Shown: positions 375 to 51,716 of the stretch, in pieces
How the letters are laid out: the number at the start of each line of letters is the position of its first letter
Numbering within the stretch: the first letter of the stretch is position 1
DNA from: Bacillota bacterium
GTDB taxonomy: Bacteria > Bacillota > Clostridia > SK-Y3
Reading direction: 5' to 3'
Length of the DNA stretch: 64,000 nt
Assembly (NCBI GenBank): GCA_022360955.1
Contig: JAKSBV010000309.1
Coordinates: 6,053-70,052 of the forward strand
Position numbers and translations under genes: made by a program
Notes under the pieces: model-generated
Told to the model about the DNA's origin: nothing
Databases searched by the model: none
What the model saw: only the letters and a program-made list of their open reading frames with translations

Positions 375-457
375 AATGGCTGGTCCATTCTCAACCCCCA
401 TCTCTTAACTATTTTTCTGCCTTGGAATCATTTTCTTCAACCCACATCTATACACCC
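375..457 (+). mobile_element. F-element fragment (arm2 plus beta terminal repeat)
   Basis: tggtccattctca...ccttggaatcattttcttcaacccacatctatacaccc matches the beta half of the complete F-element at 46493-46728. Confidence 0.6.
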
Positions 458-11752: not shown

Positions 11753-11952
11753 GGGTGTATAAATTCTGGGTGAAGAAAATTATTCCAACAACTGGTATTC
11801 CAAGGCTAAGACCCTGTAAGCTTGCGCCGGGCCGCAGCAAAACTCGCTATCGCTCAAACAGTTGCTGCTTCCTCCCTCTGCTTCGCTAACAGGCTCTAAG
11901 CCTTTCCATAAGGTCATTTCCATAATTTTCTTCACCTACACTAAATACACCC
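11753..11952 (-). mobile_element. F-element, complete short variant (beta end at left, alpha end at right)
   Basis: GGGTGTATAAATTCTGGGTGAAGAAAATTATTCCAACAACTGGTATTCCAAGGCTAAG ... GGTCATTTCCATAATTTTCTTCACCTACACTAAATACACCC; both ends match the ends of the copy at 46493-46728; the centre is a different palindromic stem. Confidence 0.7.
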
Positions 11953-11962
11953 CCTCTGCTTA

Positions 11963-12003
11963 GGTGTATAAATTCTGGTTGAAGAAAATCATTCCAACAA
12001 CTA
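11963..12003 (-). repeat. solo F-element beta terminal repeat, 3' of the Cas12f/TnpB-like gene
   Basis: GGTGTATAAATTCTGGTTGAAGAAAATCATTCCAACAACTA, near-identical to 11754-11794; similarity to other copies stops after CAACAACT. Confidence 0.7.
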
Positions 12004-12012
12004 TATGTCTGC

Positions 12013-12182: not shown

Positions 12183-13793
12183 TTAAATAATTTGTATCAG
12201 CCGATTCAAGTCCTCTGCGCTTTCGAGTTTTTTAATCAGGCTGTACTTTTTCTTAAAATCTTTATGCTTTGTATGTTCTTCAATATTAGTACGAAAATCT
12301 TGTATGATCCTTTCGATTTCATCCCAGAACTCATCCATACAGTGATTGGAATGGTTGGCATAGTAGTTCAGACCCAAGATTTTGTTTGTAAACTTTACAC
12401 CTTTCGGCGTGTTTTCCAGCTTCACTTTCACTGTGCCCTGATAGTGCTGATTCAATCTTCTAGCCAGATTTAAGCTGCCTAATTGTTCAATATCCATCGT
12501 TTTGCCACAAGTCACACATATAAACAGATCCCTGGAAAACCTATTTTGTCCGGTATGCATCCCGCATGCAGGACATGTATAAAAAATGCCCACCGGACTG
12601 ACTCTAATAGGAACAGGCAATCCTTTCTCCGTCAATTTATATTCCAATATTCTTATCAGCTCATTATAGCTGTAAGGGCTTAAAATCGGCATATAGCTTG
12701 TATTGTCCTGGTCTTTCCACTGCAATTTGTCTCCTTTATCATAGAGAGCCTGCATGACCACTTGTGACCGTTCCCGGCAGGCAATATTTACAATCGTATT
12801 GGCCAGTTTATGGATTTCATGCACCGGTAACGGGTAACTGCGGTTTTGTACCCCTGATATGCCGTTTATCAATAGGGCCCCGCTTTCGACCACCTGACTG
12901 TCCTGATCTGCCGCGGTATAATGCACGGGGCTTTTAAGCCCTCTTGCAATCCCCAAATATGTGGTAGTTTCTACCTTTTCAGCCTCTCCTATATCAATGC
13001 TGACGGATAAATAATACTCATTTTTCTTCTTAATAAGCCTTGCCGTTTTCAGCATTTCGGATTTATGCAAGGCCTGCTTCAAATACTTTTCCTGCCAGCG
13101 TCCAAAGGAAAGAGGCAGCAATATAAACCGTTCTTTTCTGCCCGTACTTTCCAACACTTTGGACTCTTTATGGATATAGGTTAGTTCTGCATCCTTTTGA
13201 CCGGGAATTGCTTTTCTGTTTTGATCTTTCACGTTCATCAGGTAAAGCTTTGCATAGTATTTATCATTTTTGCCGTCATACAACAAGCAATAATCCCGAT
13301 TGGTTGCATATCTGCAAAAAAATATCGGCTTAACGCTGGTGCTTTTTGCAATAATTCGCTTGATCTGCCGGTCACATTCATATAAAGGCTGGGCTTCATC
13401 GGTTAACCGTGCCATTGCGTTTTCATACTTGGCTTGCCATTTTTCCTCAGATAAATAGGCAATGGGATAATTGGCATACTGCTGAATCTCGCTTAAACTC
13501 AAATAACTCGCCAGCGTCATCCCAAAATCTATTTTTAACGCATCTTTAAAAGGCTGAACATCAAAGCGATTCAGCTCTTTGCTAAGCCCTTTATCCACCC
13601 ACTTTGCGATAAGGTTGGCCCTATAATTCCCTCTAGCATCCTTATAATCTCTACGGATGTCTTCAATATGCTTACAGGCCTTATCCAGCAGATATTGATA
13701 GGCGCGGGAGTAATTGAGCATCGCTCGCTCCATAATTTCGCGCTTCCGTTTACCGGGATTATGCAGTTTTAAAGTAATCGTCCGCATCGCCAT
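12183..13793 (-). CDS. Cas12f/TnpB-superfamily protein with substituted RuvC triad (predicted nuclease-dead RNA-guided DNA-binding protein)
   Basis: TITLKLHNPGKRK N-terminus, FGRWQ motif, GIARGLKSPV (RuvC-I with Ala for Asp), VVMQAL (RuvC-II with Gln for Glu), YTCPACG...FICVTCG zinc ribbon, DIEQLGSLNLARR (RuvC-III with Glu for Asp); ~89-aa C-terminal tail. Confidence 0.8.
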   Translation of the reverse strand: MAMRTITLKLHNPGKRKREIMERAMLNYSRAYQYLLDKACKHIEDIRRDYKDARGNYRANLIAKWVDKGLSKELNRFDVQPFKDALKIDFGMTLASYLSLSEIQQYANYPIAYLSEEKWQAKYENAMARLTDEAQPLYECDRQIKRIIAKSTSVKPIFFCRYATNRDYCLLYDGKNDKYYAKLYLMNVKDQNRKAIPGQKDAELTYIHKESKVLESTGRKERFILLPLSFGRWQEKYLKQALHKSEMLKTARLIKKKNEYYLSVSIDIGEAEKVETTTYLGIARGLKSPVHYTAADQDSQVVESGALLINGISGVQNRSYPLPVHEIHKLANTIVNIACRERSQVVMQALYDKGDKLQWKDQDNTSYMPILSPYSYNELIRILEYKLTEKGLPVPIRVSPVGIFYTCPACGMHTGQNRFSRDLFICVTCGKTMDIEQLGSLNLARRLNQHYQGTVKVKLENTPKGVKFTNKILGLNYYANHSNHCMDEFWDEIERIIQDFRTNIEEHTKHKDFKKKYSLIKKLESAEDLNRLIQII

Positions 13794-13812: not shown

Positions 13813-13842
13813 AGTGGGGAGATAGGAGTAGGGGGTGGGGAG
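13813..13842 (+). repeat. GGGGAGT-type word array (G-rich on plus strand) in the 5' UTR region of the Cas12f/TnpB-like gene
   Basis: AGTGGGGAGATAGGAGTAGGGGGTGGGGAG; complementary in character to 13987-14023; contains hairpin GGGTGGG-gaga-CCCACCC at 13833-13850. Confidence 0.7.
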
Positions 13843-13914
13843 ACCCACCCTGTTCCTTTGCACTCCTGCTCCTCTTCACACTATAATCAAAATCCAAAAA
13901 ACAGATCACAATAA

Positions 13915-13944
13915 AATATACCACACTATTGTTTTACCATGCAA
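13915..13944 (-). promoter_or_regulatory. candidate sigma-A promoter for the Cas12f/TnpB-like gene
   Basis: minus strand TTGCAT (13944-13939), 18-nt spacer, TGgTATATT extended -10 (hexamer at 13920-13915). Confidence 0.4.
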
Positions 13945-13986
13945 GTATTATTCGTTGATAAGGGACAATGGGGTAAGAGCGAGGTT

Positions 13987-14023
13987 CTCACTCCCCGCTC
14001 CCCACACCTCACTCCCCACTAAC
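13987..14023 (-). repeat. GGGGAGT-type purine word array immediately 3' of adhE (purine-rich on the sense/minus strand)
   Basis: minus strand GTTAGTGGGGAGTGAGGTGTGGGGAGCGGGGAGTGAG, starting 6 nt after the adhE TAG. Confidence 0.7.
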
Positions 14024-22124: not shown

Positions 22125-22198
22125 ACTGCCCTTTCCCCCTTCTTTCATGCCGGTATCCTTCACACCCATTATAGGTTAACGCACACTCACATTAGAGG

Positions 22199-22501
22199 TA
22201 TCATTCTATGGACCGGAGATCGGAGGTCAGAAGGCGGAGGTCGGAATCTGACCCAACAGGAGCACAAAGTAATCAACAGCAAGGTGGCATGAACGGTAGG
22301 CGGTTCATTCTCACCCCTCATCTCTCAGCCCTCAACTACTTTTTAGCCTTGGAATATCAGTTGTTGGATACTGAACTTTAAAATTGAATTTATATTTGAA
22401 CAAACAATGTAGAACCCTCATTGTTTGTTTAAATGAATTTTAAGGTATAAAGTTCGGTATCTTTGTTGGAATCATTTTCTTCACCCAGCATTTATACACC
22501 C
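22199..22501 (+). mobile_element. F-element lacking a recognisable alpha terminus and interrupted by a MITE-A copy
   Basis: arm1 GGAGATCGGAGGTCAGAAGGCGGAGGTCGGAAT, core CAGGAGCACAAAGTAATCAACAGCAAGGTGG, arm2 ...CTCTCAGCCCTCAAC and beta repeat TTGTTGGAATCATTTTCTTCACCCAGCATTTATACACCC align with 46493-46728. Confidence 0.7.
22367..22464. mobile_element. MITE-A repeat nested inside the F-element beta repeat
   Basis: GATACTGAACTTTAAAA ... ATAAAGTTCGGTATC splits CCTTGGAATATCAGTTGTTG / TTGTTGGAATCATTTTC, which is contiguous in the copy at 46676-46705. Confidence 0.75.
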
Positions 22502-44750: not shown

Positions 44751-45026
44751 CTAGGTTTTAAAAATAAGCTGCAATATCAAAAGCAATACGACCCCCGGGA
44801 TTCCCAGCACACCTGCTGTTAATGCCGTAAGAGGATTTACACCGATATGTATATTCATAAAGCTTCCTATTACATTGATGACGATTAAGATGATCCCGCC
44901 CAATATACCGTTATAAATTAACTTGATGACTATTTTCAACGGAACCAACAGAACCCATCCTACTATGTATAAGAGGATCAGGCCGAATACATAGGCGATA
45001 ATCACATTAAATTCTATTACCGGCAT
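44751..45026 (-). CDS. bofA: pro-sigma-K processing inhibitor BofA
   Basis: IYNGILGGIILIVINVIG...GVNPLTALTAGVLGIPGVVLL; synteny recR-yaaL-bofA as in Bacillus; start at ATG 45026. Confidence 0.85.
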   Translation of the reverse strand: MPVIEFNVIIAYVFGLILLYIVGWVLLVPLKIVIKLIYNGILGGIILIVINVIGSFMNIHIGVNPLTALTAGVLGIPGVVLLLILQLIFKT

Positions 45027-45100
45027 TTTTATCACTCCTGTAGTTTTTGTTCGGAGTCTGGCGTTCGGGGTGCGGCACGTACAACTTTTGGAGATCATAA

Positions 45101-45172
45101 GACGCAGGGAGAATATGAGTGTTTCTCCTATACGCTGAAATCAACTCTTTGCTCTCAGCCCTCAACGCTCAA
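45101..45172 (+). repeat. possible F-element remnant
   Basis: contains CTCTCAGCCCTCAAC (45152-45166), identical to the arm2/beta junction of the copies at 22322 and 46651; the rest is diverged. Confidence 0.3.
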
Positions 45173-45298
45173 CAATGACTTCAACTGTAAAGTATAACCT
45201 ATTACATTTATACTACTTACTTCAGGATAATATGATAAAAATTTTGGACAACGGTTAAAGAAAAACCGAAGCTCATTGCGCATTCGGTTTTTTTTGCA

Positions 45299-45652
45299 TT
45301 ATTCTGCCACTGTTTCTTTCGATCTTTTTAAAGGTTCCACATTGATCTTTTTTTCTTTAGCCTTTTTTAATAAATACTGATATCTTGTTTGCGCAGCCTT
45401 CATCTGGTAAATATAAAAATCTATTAGCTCCTGTTCCTGCACAAATTCAAAGTTTCTATTGGCTATTTCCAGTTCTTTTTGCGCCTGAAGAAGATTATCA
45501 AGGATTTCTTTTGCTTCTCCGTCGTCCTCATCCATCTCCATTTTTATGGGTGTTTTTTGCTGAAGGAAAAAATTATGTAAAAAAGGCAGCTTAGGATTTT
45601 TATTTTTTTTAGGTTCTACATTATACATCTTTAGTGCAGCAGATTTATTCAT
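45299..45652 (-). CDS. yaaL: DUF2508 (YaaL-like) protein
   Basis: LQAQKELEIANRNFEFVQEQELIDFYIYQMKAAQTRYQYLLKKAK; synteny; start at ATG 45652 behind GGAGGG. Confidence 0.7.
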   Translation of the reverse strand: MNKSAALKMYNVEPKKNKNPKLPFLHNFFLQQKTPIKMEMDEDDGEAKEILDNLLQAQKELEIANRNFEFVQEQELIDFYIYQMKAAQTRYQYLLKKAKEKKINVEPLKRSKETVAE

Positions 45653-45881
45653 GGTGTCCCTCCAATTAGTTTTATTTTCATTTGCTATGGACTGCATTAC
45701 ATATGCATATCTGTCACATCATTTGTAATTATATCCAATTTTGATGTTTTTATTACCATACGAACTATAAAAGTTACAATTGATGTTTATATTACATTAT
45801 ATGTGGAGAAGCTAAATATATACCTTCGCTCATTTATCAAAATGACAAAACAAGGAACACTTTATCTGCTTTTGAATATAC

Positions 45882-46022
45882 TAGAGATAACCAACTTTAA
45901 ATCTAAAAACATATTTACATAAGGCGTTTTAAAAATGCATTATTCATATCCAATACTAATAACATCGGAAGGGTATTGAACCTTTTCGATTTATGAATTC
46001 GATTTTAAAGTTGGTATCTATA
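45882..46022. mobile_element. MITE-A repeat, long variant
   Basis: TAGAGATAACCAACTTTAAATC ... GATTTTAAAGTTGGTATCTATA with extra internal sequence. Confidence 0.75.
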
Positions 46023-46129
46023 GTTTAGAGAACTGGCGAATATAGAATTGCTTTTTCCAAATAATTGTGTTTAAGCATCTATTGTGCCATTTTCATTTTT
46101 ATGAAAACAGGGTTGCAGGAGGGATAAAA

Positions 46130-46318
46130 TTGTATTTTGAAACGATTACCTACGAAAGAAACGAACGTTTTTGTCCGGTATTGCAAAAAAATGTGCTCAT
46201 GGATGTCAATGAAAAACATTGCGCCGGACATACCACCGTCGATGTGAAATGCTGCAATGAAAGTCAATGTTCAAAACAATTTGGCAAATGTACGAATACA
46301 GTCATACAAGGCATGTAA
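46130..46318 (+). CDS. hypothetical small cysteine-rich protein
   Basis: 62 codons from TTG 46130, 6 nt after AGGAGGG; 7 Cys; no family recognised. Confidence 0.4.
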   Translation: MYFETITYERNERFCPVLQKNVLMDVNEKHCAGHTTVDVKCCNESQCSKQFGKCTNTVIQGM

Positions 46319-46438
46319 TGTCCACAGGCCTGTATAAAAAGTTTAGTTGATGTAATATGATTCCGGCAAAAATCATGAACGTTAAGTCCGGCATCCAACA
46401 ACCGATAAAGTATGCTCTTCATTCGGCAGTATAAAAAT

Positions 46439-46490
46439 GACGCCAATCGTCACTTAAAACGGCTGGCGTCTTGATCTTTTTGCTTTTTTC
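46439..46490 (+). terminator. possible terminator of the small plus-strand ORF
   Basis: GACGCCA ... TGGCGTC (7-bp stem, 18-nt loop) followed by TTGATCTTTTTGCTTTTTT. Confidence 0.35.
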
Positions 46491-46492
46491 AC

Positions 46493-46728
46493 GGGTGTAT
46501 TCAGTGTAGGTGAAGAAATTTATGGAAATGACCTTATATACCGGAGGTCGGAGATCAGAGGGCGGAAGTCGGAATATAACCAAACAGGGACGCAAAGTAA
46601 TCATAGACAAGCGTATCGTAAATGGTGGGTGGTCCATTCTCACCTCTCATCTCTCAGCCCTCAACTATTTTTTAGCCTTGGAATATCAGTTATTGGAATA
46701 ATTTTCTTCACTTCAAATTTATGTGCCC
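46493..46728 (+). mobile_element. F-element, complete copy with 9-bp target-site duplication
   Basis: alpha end GGGTGTATTCAGTGTAGGTGAAGAAATTTATGGAA, beta end (reverse complement) GGGCACATAAATTTGAAGTGAAGAAAATTATTCCAA; flanked by TTTTTTCAC at 46484-46492 and 46729-46737. Confidence 0.85.
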
Positions 46729-46873
46729 TTTTTTCACTATCTGCTTGACAGGGAGCACTTTATGAGGCTTTACCCATGGTGACCATGATTTCCGATAAGA
46801 CTTTATTTACATTTAATAATACTTTATTTTTTACGACAGAAGTTTTTTGGTACTGTACAACCGCGCACCGAGC

Positions 46874-47473
46874 TTAAATCTCTCTCCGCCCTTCTATCGC
46901 TTTCGTAAGGGTTACTTCATCGGTATATTCCAAGTCCCCTCCGATCGGAATGCCGTGAGCAATTCTGGTAACTTTAATACCCAGAGGCTTTAAAAGCTTG
47001 GAGATATACATAGCCGTTGCTTCCCCTTCTATATTAGGGTCTGTTGCCATAATGACCTCCTGGATTTCATTATTTTTGACTCTATCCAAAAGCTCTTTAA
47101 TCTTGATGTCTTCCGGCCCTATACCACTCATAGGCGATATGGCACCGTGCAGCACGTGATACAAACCATGATACTCTCTTGTCTTTTCCATTGCGATTAC
47201 ATCTCTGGGATTTTCAACAACACTGAGAAGACTGCCGTCTCTTTTACTATTACTGCATATTCTGCACGGATTGATATCGGTAAGATTTTGACAGCACGTG
47301 CAATAGCTTATGTTCTTTTTGGCACTATCAATCGCTTTAATCATATTATCTACTGCAGCCGCAGGCATATCAAGTACGTAAAATGCAAGACGCTGGGCGG
47401 TTTTATGCCCTATCCCCGGCATTTTCTCAAATTCTTCTATCAGTCGTGCTACCGGTGCAACGTAATAACTCAT
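46874..47473 (-). CDS. recR: recombination protein RecR
   Basis: [18 protein letters not shown]4 zinc finger [12 protein letters not shown], Toprim domain. Confidence 0.97.
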
Positions 47474-47630
47474 CCTATCACCCTATTTTCTAATTTGAAT
47501 TGATAAAGTATCTTTCATAAAAGCCGAGGAAGGCTACCCTCGGCTTTTATCATTACTATACGTACTTTTAGCTCAGCTTTATACATTTACAAGCCTGTTG
47601 AGCATTACCTTCTTTATTCATTTTTCTTCC

Positions 47631-47660
47631 CTAATTCTTCATTCTTAATTCTTCATTAAT
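47631..47660 (-). repeat. GAAGAAT/GAATTAA-type purine word array immediately 3' of ybaB
   Basis: minus strand ATTAATGAAGAATTAAGAATGAAGAATTAG directly after TAG at 47661-47663. Confidence 0.6.
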
Positions 47661-48008
47661 CTAAAACATTCCCGGCAGATTCATACCACCTGTGATTTTT
47701 CCCATCTCTGAAGACATCATTTCTTCCGCTTTTCTAATTGCTTCATTTACAGCCGCCATCACCAAATCCTGTAACATTTCTACGTCATCGGGATCTACAA
47801 CTTCAGGATCTATCTTAATCTCCTGAATCTCTTTCTTTCCTGTGGCAATCACCGTAATAGCGCCTCCGCCCGCAGAAGCTTCTACTGTCTTTTCTTCCAG
47901 CTCTTCTTGGAGTTTAGCCATATCTTGCTGCATCTTTTGTGCCTGCTTTAACATTTTGTTCATATTTCCCATTCCACCCATGCCTGGGAATCCACCGCGT
48001 TTTGCCAT
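47661..48008 (-). CDS. ybaB: YbaB/EbfC family nucleoid-associated protein
   Basis: [27 protein letters not shown]...; start at ATG 48008, 7 nt after GGGAGG. Confidence 0.95.
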
Positions 48009-48026
48009 TGTCAAACCTCCCTGATA

Positions 48027-48058
48027 TTAGTGGGGAGTAGGGAGTGGGGAGTGGGGAG
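48027..48058 (+). repeat. GGGGAGT-type word array (four G-runs) upstream of ybaB
   Basis: TTAGTGGGGAGTAGGGAGTGGGGAGTGGGGAG. Confidence 0.7.
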
Positions 48059-48168
48059 TTGTTGTGTCCCCCATAATACCCGGACTGCCTATCCCAAATC
48101 ATCTGAATCACTATTTTATACTATAATAACGTATATGCATAAATCTCTCAAGTATTAATTGCATGAAA

Positions 48169-48345
48169 GGATATATAAATTCCTGTTGAAGAAGATTATT
48201 TGACCAAATAATATTCCAAGGTCAAAAAATAGTTTAAGGCTGAGGGCTGAACATGAACGGCCCACCGCTCATACTTTACTCTTTATTCTACAATCACTCA
48301 TAACCTAATTCTTAATTATTCATTATTCATTATTAATTATTCTTT
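48169..48345 (-). mobile_element. F-element, diverged copy without alpha terminus, 3' of dnaX
   Basis: GGATATATAAATTCCTGTTGAAGAAGATTATTTGACCAAATAATATTCCAAGGTCAAAAAATAGTTTAAGGCTGAGGGCTGAAC aligns with the reverse complement of 46640-46728; ends in an AT-rich word array. Confidence 0.6.
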
Positions 48346-48358
48346 GCCCTTCCCCTCC

Positions 48359-49987
48359 CTACTCATCATATACCTCTATCCTATCTCCCCATTCATCTTT
48401 TCGGCGCAGGATTTGCTCCAATTTGTCTTCTTCCTCTGCTTCCTGCTGCTTTTCCCCTGCTTCTCTTGCCAATAAGCACTGTATCTTTACCGATGTACCC
48501 GATAATTTGGCTATAATTTCTTCTAACAATTGCGTATTATCACTTTTTGCAACCATCATTCTGTTGGTTGCAAAAGCATTTTTAAATATGATGCCGATCC
48601 CTTCATTGGCAGGCTCTACCCTTGTATCGGTTAAATAGCCGAACAAAACCAATTTTCCGCTTTTTTTTACTTCAGCGATTATTTCCGGCCATAGATGAAT
48701 CACTTTATTGACCTCTTCACTATTGGGAGGAACCACTTTCTTCTTAACGGACGCTTTTTGAGGAGAGACCGAAGGCGTTTGTTTTTTGGCAGGCTCCCGT
48801 TTTGCCGGAACGGGTTCCGTTTTAATGGCTATGGTTCCTGTCATAAGCTTATGTTCAAGCTCGGCGATTCTATCCATAAGTGCTTCCGGTGATGTATCCA
48901 GTCTGGCTTTAGATAATTTGAGCAACGCCATTTCAAGTATAATCCGCGGATTTGCCGCCCATTTCGCCGTAGCTTGTGCCTCTGACAATACGTTAATACA
49001 ATATATCATTTTCTCCTGACTAAAGTGCGTTCCATGTTCTTTTAATCGCGCGATGCCCTCCGGGGCCATATCCAAAACATTTTCAGGTTTGTCTAAGGTT
49101 TTACACATCAGCAAATTTCTGAAATGCCGAATGAAATCATCAATAAAATGATGGACATCTCGCCCTTCCATGATAAGCTGCTCAATAAGCTCCATCAGCT
49201 TATTGGCGTTGTCCTCTATAATCCCCTGAGACATCTGAAAAAGAAACGTATGATCCACAACACCCAAAATAGAGGCTACGTCTTCATATTGAATAAGTTC
49301 TCCGGTGAAAGCCATACACTGGTCCAGAATACTTAAAGCATCTCGCAGAGAACCGTCGGAGGCACCGGCTACCAGTCTTAATGCCCGGTCATCAATACGA
49401 ATACCGTCATCGGTTATTATTTTCTTGATCCTGCCTATCATATCATCTGTTGAAATACGTTTAAAATCGAATCTCTGGCAGCGAGACAGGATGGTTGCAG
49501 GAATTTTGTGCGGCTCTGTGGTAGCTAACACAAACAATACATGGGAAGGCGGTTCTTCCAATGTTTTTAACAGCGCATTAAAGGCTCCTGTAGATAGCAT
49601 ATGGACTTCGTCAACAATATATACTTTGTATTTTCCTTTTGCAGGCGAATAGGCTACTTCATCTCTAATCTCCCGTATGTTGTCAACCCCATTGTTGGAA
49701 GCGGCGTCTATTTCTACTACATCCATAATACTGCCATTCATAATGCCTTTGCAAATGTCACAGACATTGCAGGGATTACCTTCTTGATTGTTCATACAGT
49801 TTACGGCCCTGCTGAATATTTTTGCCGTTGAAGTCTTTCCCGTTCCTCTCGTGCCGCAAAAAAGATAAGCATGTCCTATTCGCTGTGAATGAATTTGGTT
49901 TTTGACGGTTTGGGTAATATGGTTTTGACCCACCACATCCTCAAAAACCTGCGGCCTCCATTTTCTATATAAAGCTGTATACGCCAT
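48359..49987 (-). CDS. dnaX: DNA polymerase III subunits gamma/tau
   Basis: LYRKWRPQVFEDVVGQ, GTRGTGKTS Walker A, zinc module, VYIVDEVHMLS. Confidence 0.97.
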   Translation of the reverse strand: MAYTALYRKWRPQVFEDVVGQNHITQTVKNQIHSQRIGHAYLFCGTRGTGKTSTAKIFSRAVNCMNNQEGNPCNVCDICKGIMNGSIMDVVEIDAASNNGVDNIREIRDEVAYSPAKGKYKVYIVDEVHMLSTGAFNALLKTLEEPPSHVLFVLATTEPHKIPATILSRCQRFDFKRISTDDMIGRIKKIITDDGIRIDDRALRLVAGASDGSLRDALSILDQCMAFTGELIQYEDVASILGVVDHTFLFQMSQGIIEDNANKLMELIEQLIMEGRDVHHFIDDFIRHFRNLLMCKTLDKPENVLDMAPEGIARLKEHGTHFSQEKMIYCINVLSEAQATAKWAANPRIILEMALLKLSKARLDTSPEALMDRIAELEHKLMTGTIAIKTEPVPAKREPAKKQTPSVSPQKASVKKKVVPPNSEEVNKVIHLWPEIIAEVKKSGKLVLFGYLTDTRVEPANEGIGIIFKNAFATNRMMVAKSDNTQLLEEIIAKLSGTSVKIQCLLAREAGEKQQEAEEEDKLEQILRRKDEWGDRIEVYDE

Positions 49988-51443: not shown

Positions 51444-51716
51444 GGCCGTACACCCTTTCTCGAATTATCTTCATATGCGTTACTCCTGCAGTTAGCTCAG
51501 ACCAGGCACCCTCACGGCACACGAAGGGGTTCGCTTATCGCTGCTTCGTTCCCGACCTGACGAGGTTCACGAGTCTCCGTTGCGTAAGACCCAATCTTCA
51601 TCACCACTTACAAAAGCCGGACCATACAAAAAATAACCCTCAAAAGAGCATTCACCCTTGCTATAGCGGATTGCAAGTACAGGGCACCGCTACCTCCCCG
51701 GCTAGTACGACCAAAA
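51444..51716 (-). ncRNA. ffs: signal recognition particle RNA, long Bacillus-type (scRNA)
   Basis: minus strand GGTCGTACTAGCCGGGGAGGTAGCGGTGCCCTGTAC (Alu domain) and GTCAGGTCGGGAACGAAGCAGC (domain IV) closely parallel B. subtilis scRNA as remembered; T-run after the 3' end. Confidence 0.9.

What the first reader, a model, noticed from the sequence alone, without database searches (positions are those of the whole stretch)
46484..46737. Complete F-element with perfect 9-bp target-site duplication, inserted in a terminator T-tract
Seen: TTTTTTCAC (46484-46492) | GGGTGTATTCAGTGTAGGTGAAGAAATTTATGGAA ... TTGGAATAATTTTCTTCACTTCAAATTTATGTGCCC | TTTTTTCAC (46729-46737). The ~35-nt ends are imperfect inverted repeats. 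They share GGG(T/C)(G/A)(T/C)AT termini and a GTGAAGAAA(A/T)TTAT core. The duplicated target is the T-run after a hairpin (46439-46470).

Established: a direct duplication of fixed length flanking inverted repeats is the signature of cut-and-paste or copy-in DDE-type transposition. IS200/IS605 elements, the usual home of tnpB, make no duplication and have no inverted ends.

Inference: the F family is mobilised in trans by a transposase not present in this window. This makes its sequence relationship to the Cas12f-like gene flanks unusual.
Basis: partly seen in the sequence, partly recalled or inferred. Interest (0 to 1): 0.6.

Follow-up and report, generated by a model that had tools for sequence, protein, structure and literature searches.

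The report
Orphan MITE with 9-bp duplication
The 236-bp "F-element" is a real, non-coding miniature transposon that duplicated 9 bp of its target when it landed just after the recR gene; it is one of about a hundred copies in this Clostridia genome, it is an ordinary kind of selfish DNA, and the enzyme that moved it could not be found.

Summary
Window 46493-46728 is a 236-bp element with imperfect terminal inverted repeats, flanked on both sides by TTTTTTCAC.

This is not chance. The genome has about 240 F-type ends and 39 paired copies of 67-337 bp. Of these, 20 have perfect 9-bp duplications and 8 have one mismatch. Three copies that landed inside other repeats have paralogous "empty sites" carrying the 9-mer once.

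F is therefore a MITE, moved in trans by an enzyme that makes 9-bp staggered cuts (DDE-type). No transposase lies in the window. No autonomous parent was found in the 522-contig assembly. The only intact DDE transposase seen, of the IS256 family, has unrelated ends.

The link to the Cas12f/TnpB-like gene is trivial. A solo 45-nt F end lies 177 bp downstream of a single-copy, apparently domesticated gene.

F sits between the recR stop codon and a bidirectional terminator hairpin. All other strains recovered carry it there, so the insertion is old.

Two side observations are of more interest. In other strains the same insertion carries a different 98-bp core (core swapping). The 200-bp F variant carries a hairpin with an invariant loop and covarying stems in the five other genomes recovered.

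Verdict: a new member of a known kind, of low to moderate interest.

The parts
46484..46492 (.). Left copy of the 9-bp target-site duplication, TTTTTTCAC
   Evidence: Identical to 46729-46737.
46493..46728 (+). F element, 236-bp variant, non-coding MITE, written here from the L end to the R end
   Evidence: 300 BLAST hits in the genome; 39 paired copies. Only spurious 63-aa and 74-aa ORFs overlap it.
46493..46527 (+). L-type terminal inverted repeat (GGGTGTATTCAGTGTAGGTGAAGAAATTTATGGAA)
   Evidence: The family consensus is GGGTGTATTTAGTGTAGGTGAAGAAAATTATGGAAATGA.
46693..46728 (-). R-type terminal inverted repeat (GGGCACATAAATTTGAAGTGAAGAAAATTATTCCAA on the minus strand)
   Evidence: The family consensus is GGGTGTATAAATTCTGGGTGAAGAAAATTATTCCAACAA.
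46538..46671 (+). Core module, an imperfect long palindrome shared with a second MITE family. In other strains a 98-bp core of the 200-bp F variant replaces it at this same insertion.
   Evidence: core shared with at least 58 copies that have other termini. (L011 and L013 carry the other core between the same ends and duplications).
46729..46737 (.). Right copy of the 9-bp target-site duplication, TTTTTTCAC
46439..46470 (.). Hairpin with U-rich tails on both strands: probable bidirectional terminator between recR (minus strand) and a small ORF at 46130-46318 (plus strand). F lies between the recR stop codon and this hairpin.
   Evidence: I2; -15.9 and -18.1 kcal/mol; none of 200 shuffles folds as well.
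11753..11953 (-). Second F copy in the window (200-bp variant, opposite orientation, no recognisable duplication)
11962..12006 (+). Solo R-type F end, 177 bp downstream of the TnpB-like gene (12183-13793, minus strand)
   Evidence: Only these 45 nt are shared with the F family.
22170..22501 (+). Hybrid element: left end of the second (TA-flanked) family, shared core, a nested small palindromic repeat, and an F R-type end at 22471-22501
48169..48199 (+). Degenerate solo F-like end
   Evidence: C351:54221.
427..457 (-). Degenerate solo F-like end
   Evidence: C351:6509.

Best explanation
[quoted passage not shown] It is a 236-bp, non-coding, internally palindromic sequence bounded by terminal inverted repeats of about 35-45 bp.

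Inferred mechanism: a transposase supplied in trans bound the two ends and cut the target with a 9-bp stagger. It then joined the element, and gap repair produced the TTTTTTCAC duplication. That is DDE-type cut-and-paste or copy-in chemistry.

Shown:
- the anatomy of the element;
- the 9-bp duplication as a family-wide rule;
- single-copy 9-mers at paralogous empty sites;
- high copy number;
- absence of any coding capacity;
- absence of a transposase in the window.

Inferred:
- The enzyme class.
- The parent insertion sequence is missing from this assembly, either lost or unassembled.
- This copy is now an old, fixed passenger in the recR 3' untranslated region, upstream of the terminator hairpin. 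The evidence is that copies are 83-97% identical and that all four sites checked are occupied in every other strain.
- The interior of the element is dispensable and exchangeable. Copies of 67-107 bp made of the two ends alone still carry duplications, and at this very locus other strains carry a different core. This is best explained by gene conversion between copies through the shared ends.
For: - Anatomy and duplication.
- Copy number: about 243 F-type ends genome-wide and 300 BLAST hits.
- Duplications: of 39 paired copies, 20 are perfect at 9 bp and 8 have one mismatch.
- Empty sites: copies C231:6796-7026, C22:8541-8844 and C333:6029-6249 sit inside other repeats. Uninterrupted paralogues of those repeats carry the 9-mer once.
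- Chance: a 9-mer match occurs at about 1.2e-5 per position.
- No transposase in the window.
- Mini-copies of 67-107 bp consisting of ends only also have duplications.
- Related MITEs with the same end core (TGAAGAAWATTAT followed by GGAA or TCCAA) occur in other genera of the same bacterial family.
- Copies are 83-97% identical.
- F is present at the window site and at three other sites in all other strain assemblies recovered.
- A published analogue shows the same logic: MITEAba12 is 113 bp, makes 9-bp duplications and is mobilised by ISAba12 (PMC6382973).
Against: No autonomous element with F-type ends was found.
- No long pair of inverted ends encloses a transposase.
- The 281 solo ends share no common interior.
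- DDE_Tnp_1, ISL3 and ISKra4 models gave no hit in the assembly. The ISLre2 model (PF06782) also gave none, but its control rang in no genome, so that negative is weak.
- The one intact DDE transposase, of the IS256 family in contigs C35 and C206, has different inverted repeats.

The assembly is a fragmented draft (522 contigs), so absence is not proven. No orthologous empty site was found for this particular copy; the insertion event here is inferred from the duplication and from paralogous cases. 11 of 39 paired copies lack a clear duplication. This is expected for old copies, recombinants or nested insertions, but it was not resolved copy by copy.
Confidence: 0.87

Rival explanations
1. F is a deletion derivative or cargo-less shell of the TnpB/Cas12f-like element (IS200/IS605 or IS607 type) and is moved by that system.
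For: A solo F end lies 177 bp downstream of the TnpB-like gene at 12183-13793.
Against: Only 45 nt are shared, and the gene's upstream flank has no F homology. The gene is single-copy in the genome. Its RuvC-I motif reads GIARG rather than GIDxG, and it matches guided_TnpB only below the family cut-off. IS200/IS605 elements make no duplications and have no inverted ends (established knowledge), whereas F has both. Earlier follow-ups e1-2992492 and e1-2992494 reached the same view.
Confidence: 0.02
2. The resident IS256-family transposase (contigs C35 and C206), whose family makes 8-9-bp duplications, cross-mobilises F even though the ends differ.
For: It is the only intact DDE transposase detected (NF033543, 416.8 bits). 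The IS256 family and its Mutator relatives typically give 8-9-bp duplications (established knowledge, from memory).
Against: Its inverted repeats (GAAYAAAA...CGTGTAAAYGGWAATAATC) show no convincing similarity to the F ends. Degenerate IS256-like copies are not flanked by F ends. MITE mobilisation normally requires matching ends (PMC6382973).
Confidence: 0.07
3. F, or at least its core, is kept because it does something for the host. It could be a structured RNA or DNA module placed in 3' untranslated regions, rather than purely selfish DNA.
For: The whole element folds as a long hairpin. The 200-bp variant carries a central hairpin with an invariant loop, TGTTTGAGCGNNAGCGAGTTT. Its stems covary across the five other genomes recovered. 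All sampled insertions are fixed across strains.
Against: For the core carried by this copy, divergence shows no strand-specific RNA constraint: G-U 312 against A-C 339 at Watson-Crick consensus pairs. RNAalifold finds no consensus fold over 92 copies. The fold of this copy is only marginally better than shuffles (z = -1.9 and -1.2). There is no Rfam match. The core is replaceable at this very locus. The duplications show that spread is by transposition whatever the later use.
Confidence: 0.08
4. The flanking TTTTTTCAC repeat is a coincidence of T-rich DNA, and F arrived by recombination rather than by transposition.
For: The target is T-rich and next to a terminator tail.
Against: Chance is about 1e-5 per position. 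28 of 39 copies carry 9-bp duplications of unrelated sequence. Paralogous empty sites also argue against it.
Confidence: 0.01

Closest known systems
MITEAba12 of Acinetobacter (Adams and Brown 2019, PMC6382973)
   Same: Both are small non-coding elements with imperfect terminal inverted repeats and 9-bp target-site duplications. Both are multi-copy and intergenic, and both are mobilised in trans. In both, only a fraction of copies retain recognisable duplications: 36 of 90 there, 28 of 39 here.
   Different: MITEAba12 is 113 bp with 16-bp repeats, and a co-resident parent (ISAba12) has matching ends. F is 67-337 bp with 35-45-bp repeats and several interchangeable cores. It occurs in Clostridia, and no parent was found. 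There is no sequence similarity.
IS256-family and Mutator-like elements with their derivatives (8-9-bp duplications)
   Same: The duplication length fits. An IS256-family transposase is present in the genome.
   Different: The resident element's inverted repeats do not resemble the F ends. Membership is therefore not supported.
Other insertion-sequence groups reported to give 9-bp duplications (ISLre2, ISKra4, IS1, the IS903 group of IS5, the IS10/IS50 group of IS4; ISfinder family table, recalled from memory)
   Same: The duplication length fits. ISKra4 ends are listed as starting GGG, as F ends do.
   Different: ISKra4 and DDE_Tnp_1 (IS4/IS5) models gave no hit in this genome. The ISLre2 model gave none either, but its control rang in no genome, so that search is uninformative.
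Palindrome-associated transposable elements of IS200/IS605 (TnpB-linked)
   Same: Both are small, non-coding and hairpin-rich, and an F fragment lies near a TnpB-like gene.
   Different: Those elements have no inverted ends and make no duplication. F has both.
TA-flanked MITEs of the IS630/Tc1-mariner type (for example Correia and RUP)
   Same: The second family in this genome, which shares F's long core, looks like this type. It has TA|TAGATAAC...GTTATCTA|TA ends and a TA at the polymorphic site.
   Different: F itself makes 9-bp duplications, not TA.

Membership tests
MITE (non-autonomous derivative of a DDE transposon) | Small size and no coding capacity | tested here: met
   The element is 236 bp, and copies range from 67 to 337 bp. 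Only spurious 63-aa and 74-aa ORFs overlap it.
MITE (non-autonomous derivative of a DDE transposon) | Terminal inverted repeats | tested here: met
   The consensus ends are 26/31 identical by my count, with an invariant TGAAGAAAATTAT core.
MITE (non-autonomous derivative of a DDE transposon) | Target-site duplication of fixed length | tested here: met
   Of 39 paired copies, 20 are perfect at 9 bp and 8 have one mismatch. Paralogous empty sites carry the 9-mer once.
MITE (non-autonomous derivative of a DDE transposon) | Dispersed, multi-copy, mostly intergenic | tested here: met
   About 243 ends on many contigs. Copies abut gene ends.
MITE (non-autonomous derivative of a DDE transposon) | A cognate autonomous element with matching ends and the same duplication length | tested here: not met
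   None was found in the assembly, in the few long end-pairs of relatives that were inspected, or in plasmid, phage or viral collections. The draft state of the genome and the closure of the genome search limit this test. Orphan MITEs are known, so this does not bar membership.
IS200/IS605-type palindrome-associated element (TnpA/TnpB-mobilised) | No terminal inverted repeats and no target duplication; insertion next to a short specific motif | tested here: not met
   F has inverted ends and 9-bp duplications of varied sequence.
IS256-family derived MITE | Ends matching an IS256-family element; 8-9-bp duplication | tested here: not met
   The duplication length fits, but the ends of the resident IS256-family element differ.
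IS630/Tc1-mariner MITE | TA target duplication | tested here: not met
   F duplicates 9 bp. The TA pattern belongs to the other family that shares its core.
Tn3-derived inverted-repeat miniature element (TIME) | 5-bp duplication and roughly 38-bp GGGG... ends of Tn3 type | tested here: not met
   The duplication is 9 bp. The feature definition is from memory and from the abstracts listed.
REP/BIME elements moved by REP-associated tyrosine transposases | Short GC-rich palindromes, no inverted-repeat termini, no duplication | tested here: not met
   F has inverted ends and duplications. A REP-associated-transposase-like gene does exist in the genome, scoring 77.1 bits against a cut-off of 80, but its chemistry does not fit.

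The most novel reading that the evidence does not exclude
The F family may be more than junk. The 200-bp variant is the allele present at this very locus in other strains. It carries a central hairpin whose 20-nt loop, TGTTTGAGCGNNAGCGAGTTT, is invariant while its stem covaries across the five other genomes recovered. The family also persists across genera with no detectable autonomous partner. One reading is that F carries a functional protein- or RNA-binding module. It could also be mobilised by an as yet unrecognised, possibly host-encoded, transposase. On this reading, cores are swapped in place by gene conversion between two MITE families that use different transposition chemistries.
Probability: 0.1. 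Interest if true: 0.55.

Novelty: new member of a known kind. Interest (0 to 1): 0.28.

Why it matters
- **Assembly quality.** The MITE load explains the poor assembly. There are about 240 F-type ends, plus at least 58 copies of a second family and a third small repeat.
- **Annotation.** It warns annotators that repeat fragments next to the TnpB-like gene are incidental.
- **This copy.** It lengthens the recR 3' untranslated region by 245 nt ahead of its terminator. It appears neutral, because every strain recovered carries it.
- **Wider interest.** Two MITE families with different target duplications (9 bp and TA) share a core. The core at one orthologous insertion differs between strains. 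This is a clean natural example of modular exchange between non-autonomous elements.
- **Open question.** The enzyme that moves F is unidentified. Finding it would define or extend an insertion-sequence group in uncultured Clostridia.

Tried and rejected
1. **Autonomous parent in the genome.** I used a regex for F ends allowing up to 5-7 substitutions. I inspected all inverted pairs 0.7-4.5 kb apart and found only housekeeping genes and no duplications. An all-against-all comparison of 1.5 kb inward of 281 solo ends found no shared interior. Clustering of all ORFs of 150 aa or more found no multi-copy transposase.

2. **Family models on the genome.** PF06782, PF01609, PF01610 and NF033572 gave no hit. 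PF00872 found an IS256-family element with unrelated ends.

3. **Relatives.** Long pairs of ends in G001 and G003 enclose housekeeping genes such as pyruvate kinase and phosphofructokinase, not transposases.

4. **Public collections.** There was no similarity in plasmids or phages. The genome contigs pattern scan gave mostly chance hits plus more MITEs. The viral-contig scan gave none with F-type ends.

5. **Orthologous empty site or polymorphism.** Four F sites were examined in other strain assemblies, and all were occupied. One look-up found nothing.

6. **Structured-RNA idea for the long core.** Rejected. G-U and A-C mismatches are symmetric, there is no alifold consensus and there is no Rfam hit.

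7. **TnpB cargo idea.** Rejected.

Full report
**1. The observation**

Window 46484-46737 reads TTTTTTCAC | GGGTGTATTCAGTGTAGGTGAAGAAATTTATGGAA ... TTGGAATAATTTTCTTCACTTCAAATTTATGTGCCC | TTTTTTCAC, exactly as described. The repeat finder reports the direct repeat as 10 nt (46483-46492 and 46728-46737), because the element's last base equals the base before the left repeat. It also reports 23-nt inverted arms at 78%.

A 9-mer match at a fixed offset occurs at about 1.2e-5 per position in this window. At offset 245 the only matches are here.

**2. It is one member of a large family**

The element gives 300 BLAST hits in the 4.64-Mb, 522-contig genome that holds the window. A regular expression for the ends finds about 243 of them. 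They fall into two types:
- L: GGGTGTATTTAGTGTAGGTGAAGAAAATTATGGAAATGA
- R: GGGTGTATAAATTCTGGGTGAAGAAAATTATTCCAACAA

Thirty-nine L/R pairs lie 67-337 bp apart. Of these, 20 are flanked by perfect 9-bp direct repeats of unrelated sequence and 8 by repeats with one mismatch.

Three copies sit inside other repeat families. After F and one repeat copy are removed, the flanks form an uninterrupted repeat. Its paralogues elsewhere carry the 9-mer once. This is the classical paralogous empty-site proof of insertion with duplication.

Mini-copies of 67-107 bp consist of little more than the two ends and still have duplications. The duplicated 9-mers have no clear consensus and are mildly AT-rich, 67% against 60% for the genome.

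**3. What moved it**

The element has no coding capacity. All ORFs of 150 aa or more in the window were scanned against Pfam. They are housekeeping genes or have no family match, apart from one TnpB-like gene.

In the whole assembly I found:
- an intact IS256-family transposase in contigs C35 and C206;
- an IS21 fragment;
- REP-associated-tyrosine-transposase-like genes.

The inverted repeats of the IS256-family element (GAAYAAAA...CGTGTAAAYGGWAATAATC) do not resemble the F ends. Its degenerate copies are not flanked by F ends.

DDE_Tnp_1, ISL3, ISLre2 and ISKra4 models gave no hit. The ISLre2 control did not ring in any genome, so that negative is weak. No long pair of F ends encloses a transposase. 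The 281 solo ends share no common interior.

F is therefore an orphan MITE in this assembly. A 9-bp staggered cut points to a DDE-type enzyme. From memory of the ISfinder family table, the candidate groups are IS256, ISLre2, ISKra4, IS1, the IS903 group of IS5 and the IS10/IS50 group of IS4. None was confirmed. The genome search closed before IS1595, rve and IS630 models could be tried.

**4. The TnpB/Cas12f-like gene**

The 536-aa protein encoded at 12183-13793 (minus strand) matches only the Cas12f1-like TNB domain and, below cut-off, guided_TnpB. It has GIARG where RuvC-I normally has GIDxG, and it is single-copy.

It shares with F only a 45-nt solo R end at 11962-12006. Its upstream flank has no F homology. 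The juxtaposition is incidental, in agreement with earlier follow-ups of this scan (e1-2992494, e1-2992492).

**5. Local context**

On the minus strand the gene order is dnaX (48359-49987), ybaB/ebfC (47661-48014), recR (46874-47473), a DUF2508 gene (45299-45697) and bofA (44751-45098). This matches the Bacillus dnaX-yaaK-recR-yaaL-bofA arrangement, which I recall from memory.

F lies between the recR stop codon and the hairpin at 46439-46470. The hairpin is stable on both strands (-15.9 and -18.1 kcal/mol; none of 200 shuffles folds as well) and has U-rich tails both ways. It probably terminates recR and the convergent small ORF at 46130-46318.

The target 9-mer is the distal part of the plus-strand tail. 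The proximal tail stays next to the stem, so termination is probably unaffected (inference).

**6. Age and strain comparison**

Copies are 83-97% identical to one another. Exact-protein look-ups recovered the recR locus from five other assemblies at 98-99% flank identity. All five carry F at the same site, and two of the contigs end inside it. Three further F sites are also occupied in every other strain recovered.

No orthologous empty site was found. F insertions therefore look old and fixed, which is consistent with loss of the parent.

**7. Things learned on the way**

(a) *Core swap at this locus.* In L011 (ERZ23500165) and L013 (GCA_028280005.1) the same ends and duplications enclose the 98-bp core of the 200-bp variant. 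The window and L012 instead carry the 134-bp core at 46538-46671. This is best explained by gene conversion through the shared ends. I cannot fully exclude an assembly artefact, but each allele appears in two independent assemblies.

(b) *A second family shares the long core.* At least 58 copies of a second MITE family carry it. That family has different termini (TATAGATAACGCAC...GCGTTATCTATA), and an insertion that is polymorphic between strains is flanked by TA.

(c) *No sign of strand-specific RNA selection on the long core.* G-U and A-C mismatches are balanced, and there is no Rfam match.

(d) *A conserved hairpin in the 200-bp variant.* This variant is conserved in other genera of the family and beyond. 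Its central hairpin has an invariant loop, TGTTTGAGCGNNAGCGAGTTT, and stems that covary: GCAGCA/TGCTGC, GCATC/GATGC, GCACAGCA/TGCTGTGC and CAAATCACT/AGTGATTTG. This is unexplained.

**8. Comparison and verdict**

F works like MITEAba12 (9-bp duplications, mobilised in trans; PMC6382973) and meets every defining feature of a MITE except an identified parent. It is not an IS200/IS605-type, IS630-type, Tn3-derived or REP-type element. It is a new member of a known kind.

The finding is correct but ordinary. The core swap and the conserved hairpin are the only aspects that might repay further work.

Noticed in passing
window 46538-46671; L011 3799-3896; L013 3799-3850: At this same F insertion (same ends, same duplication), two other strain assemblies carry the 98-bp core of the 200-bp F variant. 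The window and L012 carry the 134-bp core instead. This looks like in-place core replacement by gene conversion between MITE copies.
   Followed up: partly
genome-wide, e.g. window 22170-22370; L011 4402-4632 against window about 46017-46031: A second, more numerous MITE family (at least 58 copies) shares F's long core but has TATAGATAAC... termini. One insertion is present in L011 and absent from the window, with TA on both sides. This suggests IS630/mariner-type mobilisation and more recent activity than F.
   Followed up: partly
window 11753-11953 (centre about 11830-11870); L002, L003, L007, L009, L039, L050, L105: The 200-bp F variant has a central hairpin with an invariant 20-nt loop, TGTTTGAGCGNNAGCGAGTTT. 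Its stems covary across the five other genomes recovered. There is no Rfam match and the function is unknown.
   Followed up: partly
window 22170-22501: Hybrid element: a left end of the TA-flanked family, the shared core, a nested copy of the small palindromic repeat of about 105 bp (22367-22470), and an F R-type end that overlaps the stop codon of the potassium-channel gene by 10 bp.
   Followed up: no
L012 3981-3990 (ERZ27314245 k141_410920): In this contig the F copy is followed not by the expected duplication and flank but by DNA that matches another G000 locus (C435:342 onward). This is either recombination between F copies or an assembly chimera at the repeat.
   Followed up: no
L016 2356-2472; L013 3851-3918: Extra insertions of the small palindromic repeat (about 105-116 bp) relative to the window's genome. 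That family is also polymorphic between strains.
   Followed up: no
G000 contigs C35:86-1192 and C206:2053-2367: An IS256-family transposase, intact at 408-419 aa, with inverted repeats GAAYAAAA...CGTGTAAAYGGWAATAATC. There are also an IS21 fragment (C493) and two REP-associated-tyrosine-transposase-like genes with a DnaA-like C-terminal region (C47, C114).
   Followed up: partly
window 44751-49987, minus strand: Conserved dnaX-ybaB-recR-DUF2508-bofA gene order as in Bacillus. The large signal recognition particle RNA is at 51446-51710 (minus strand).
   Followed up: no
window 13813-14023: G-rich inverted word arrays (GGGGAG-type) upstream of the TnpB-like gene recur at about 20 other loci in the genome.
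   Followed up: no
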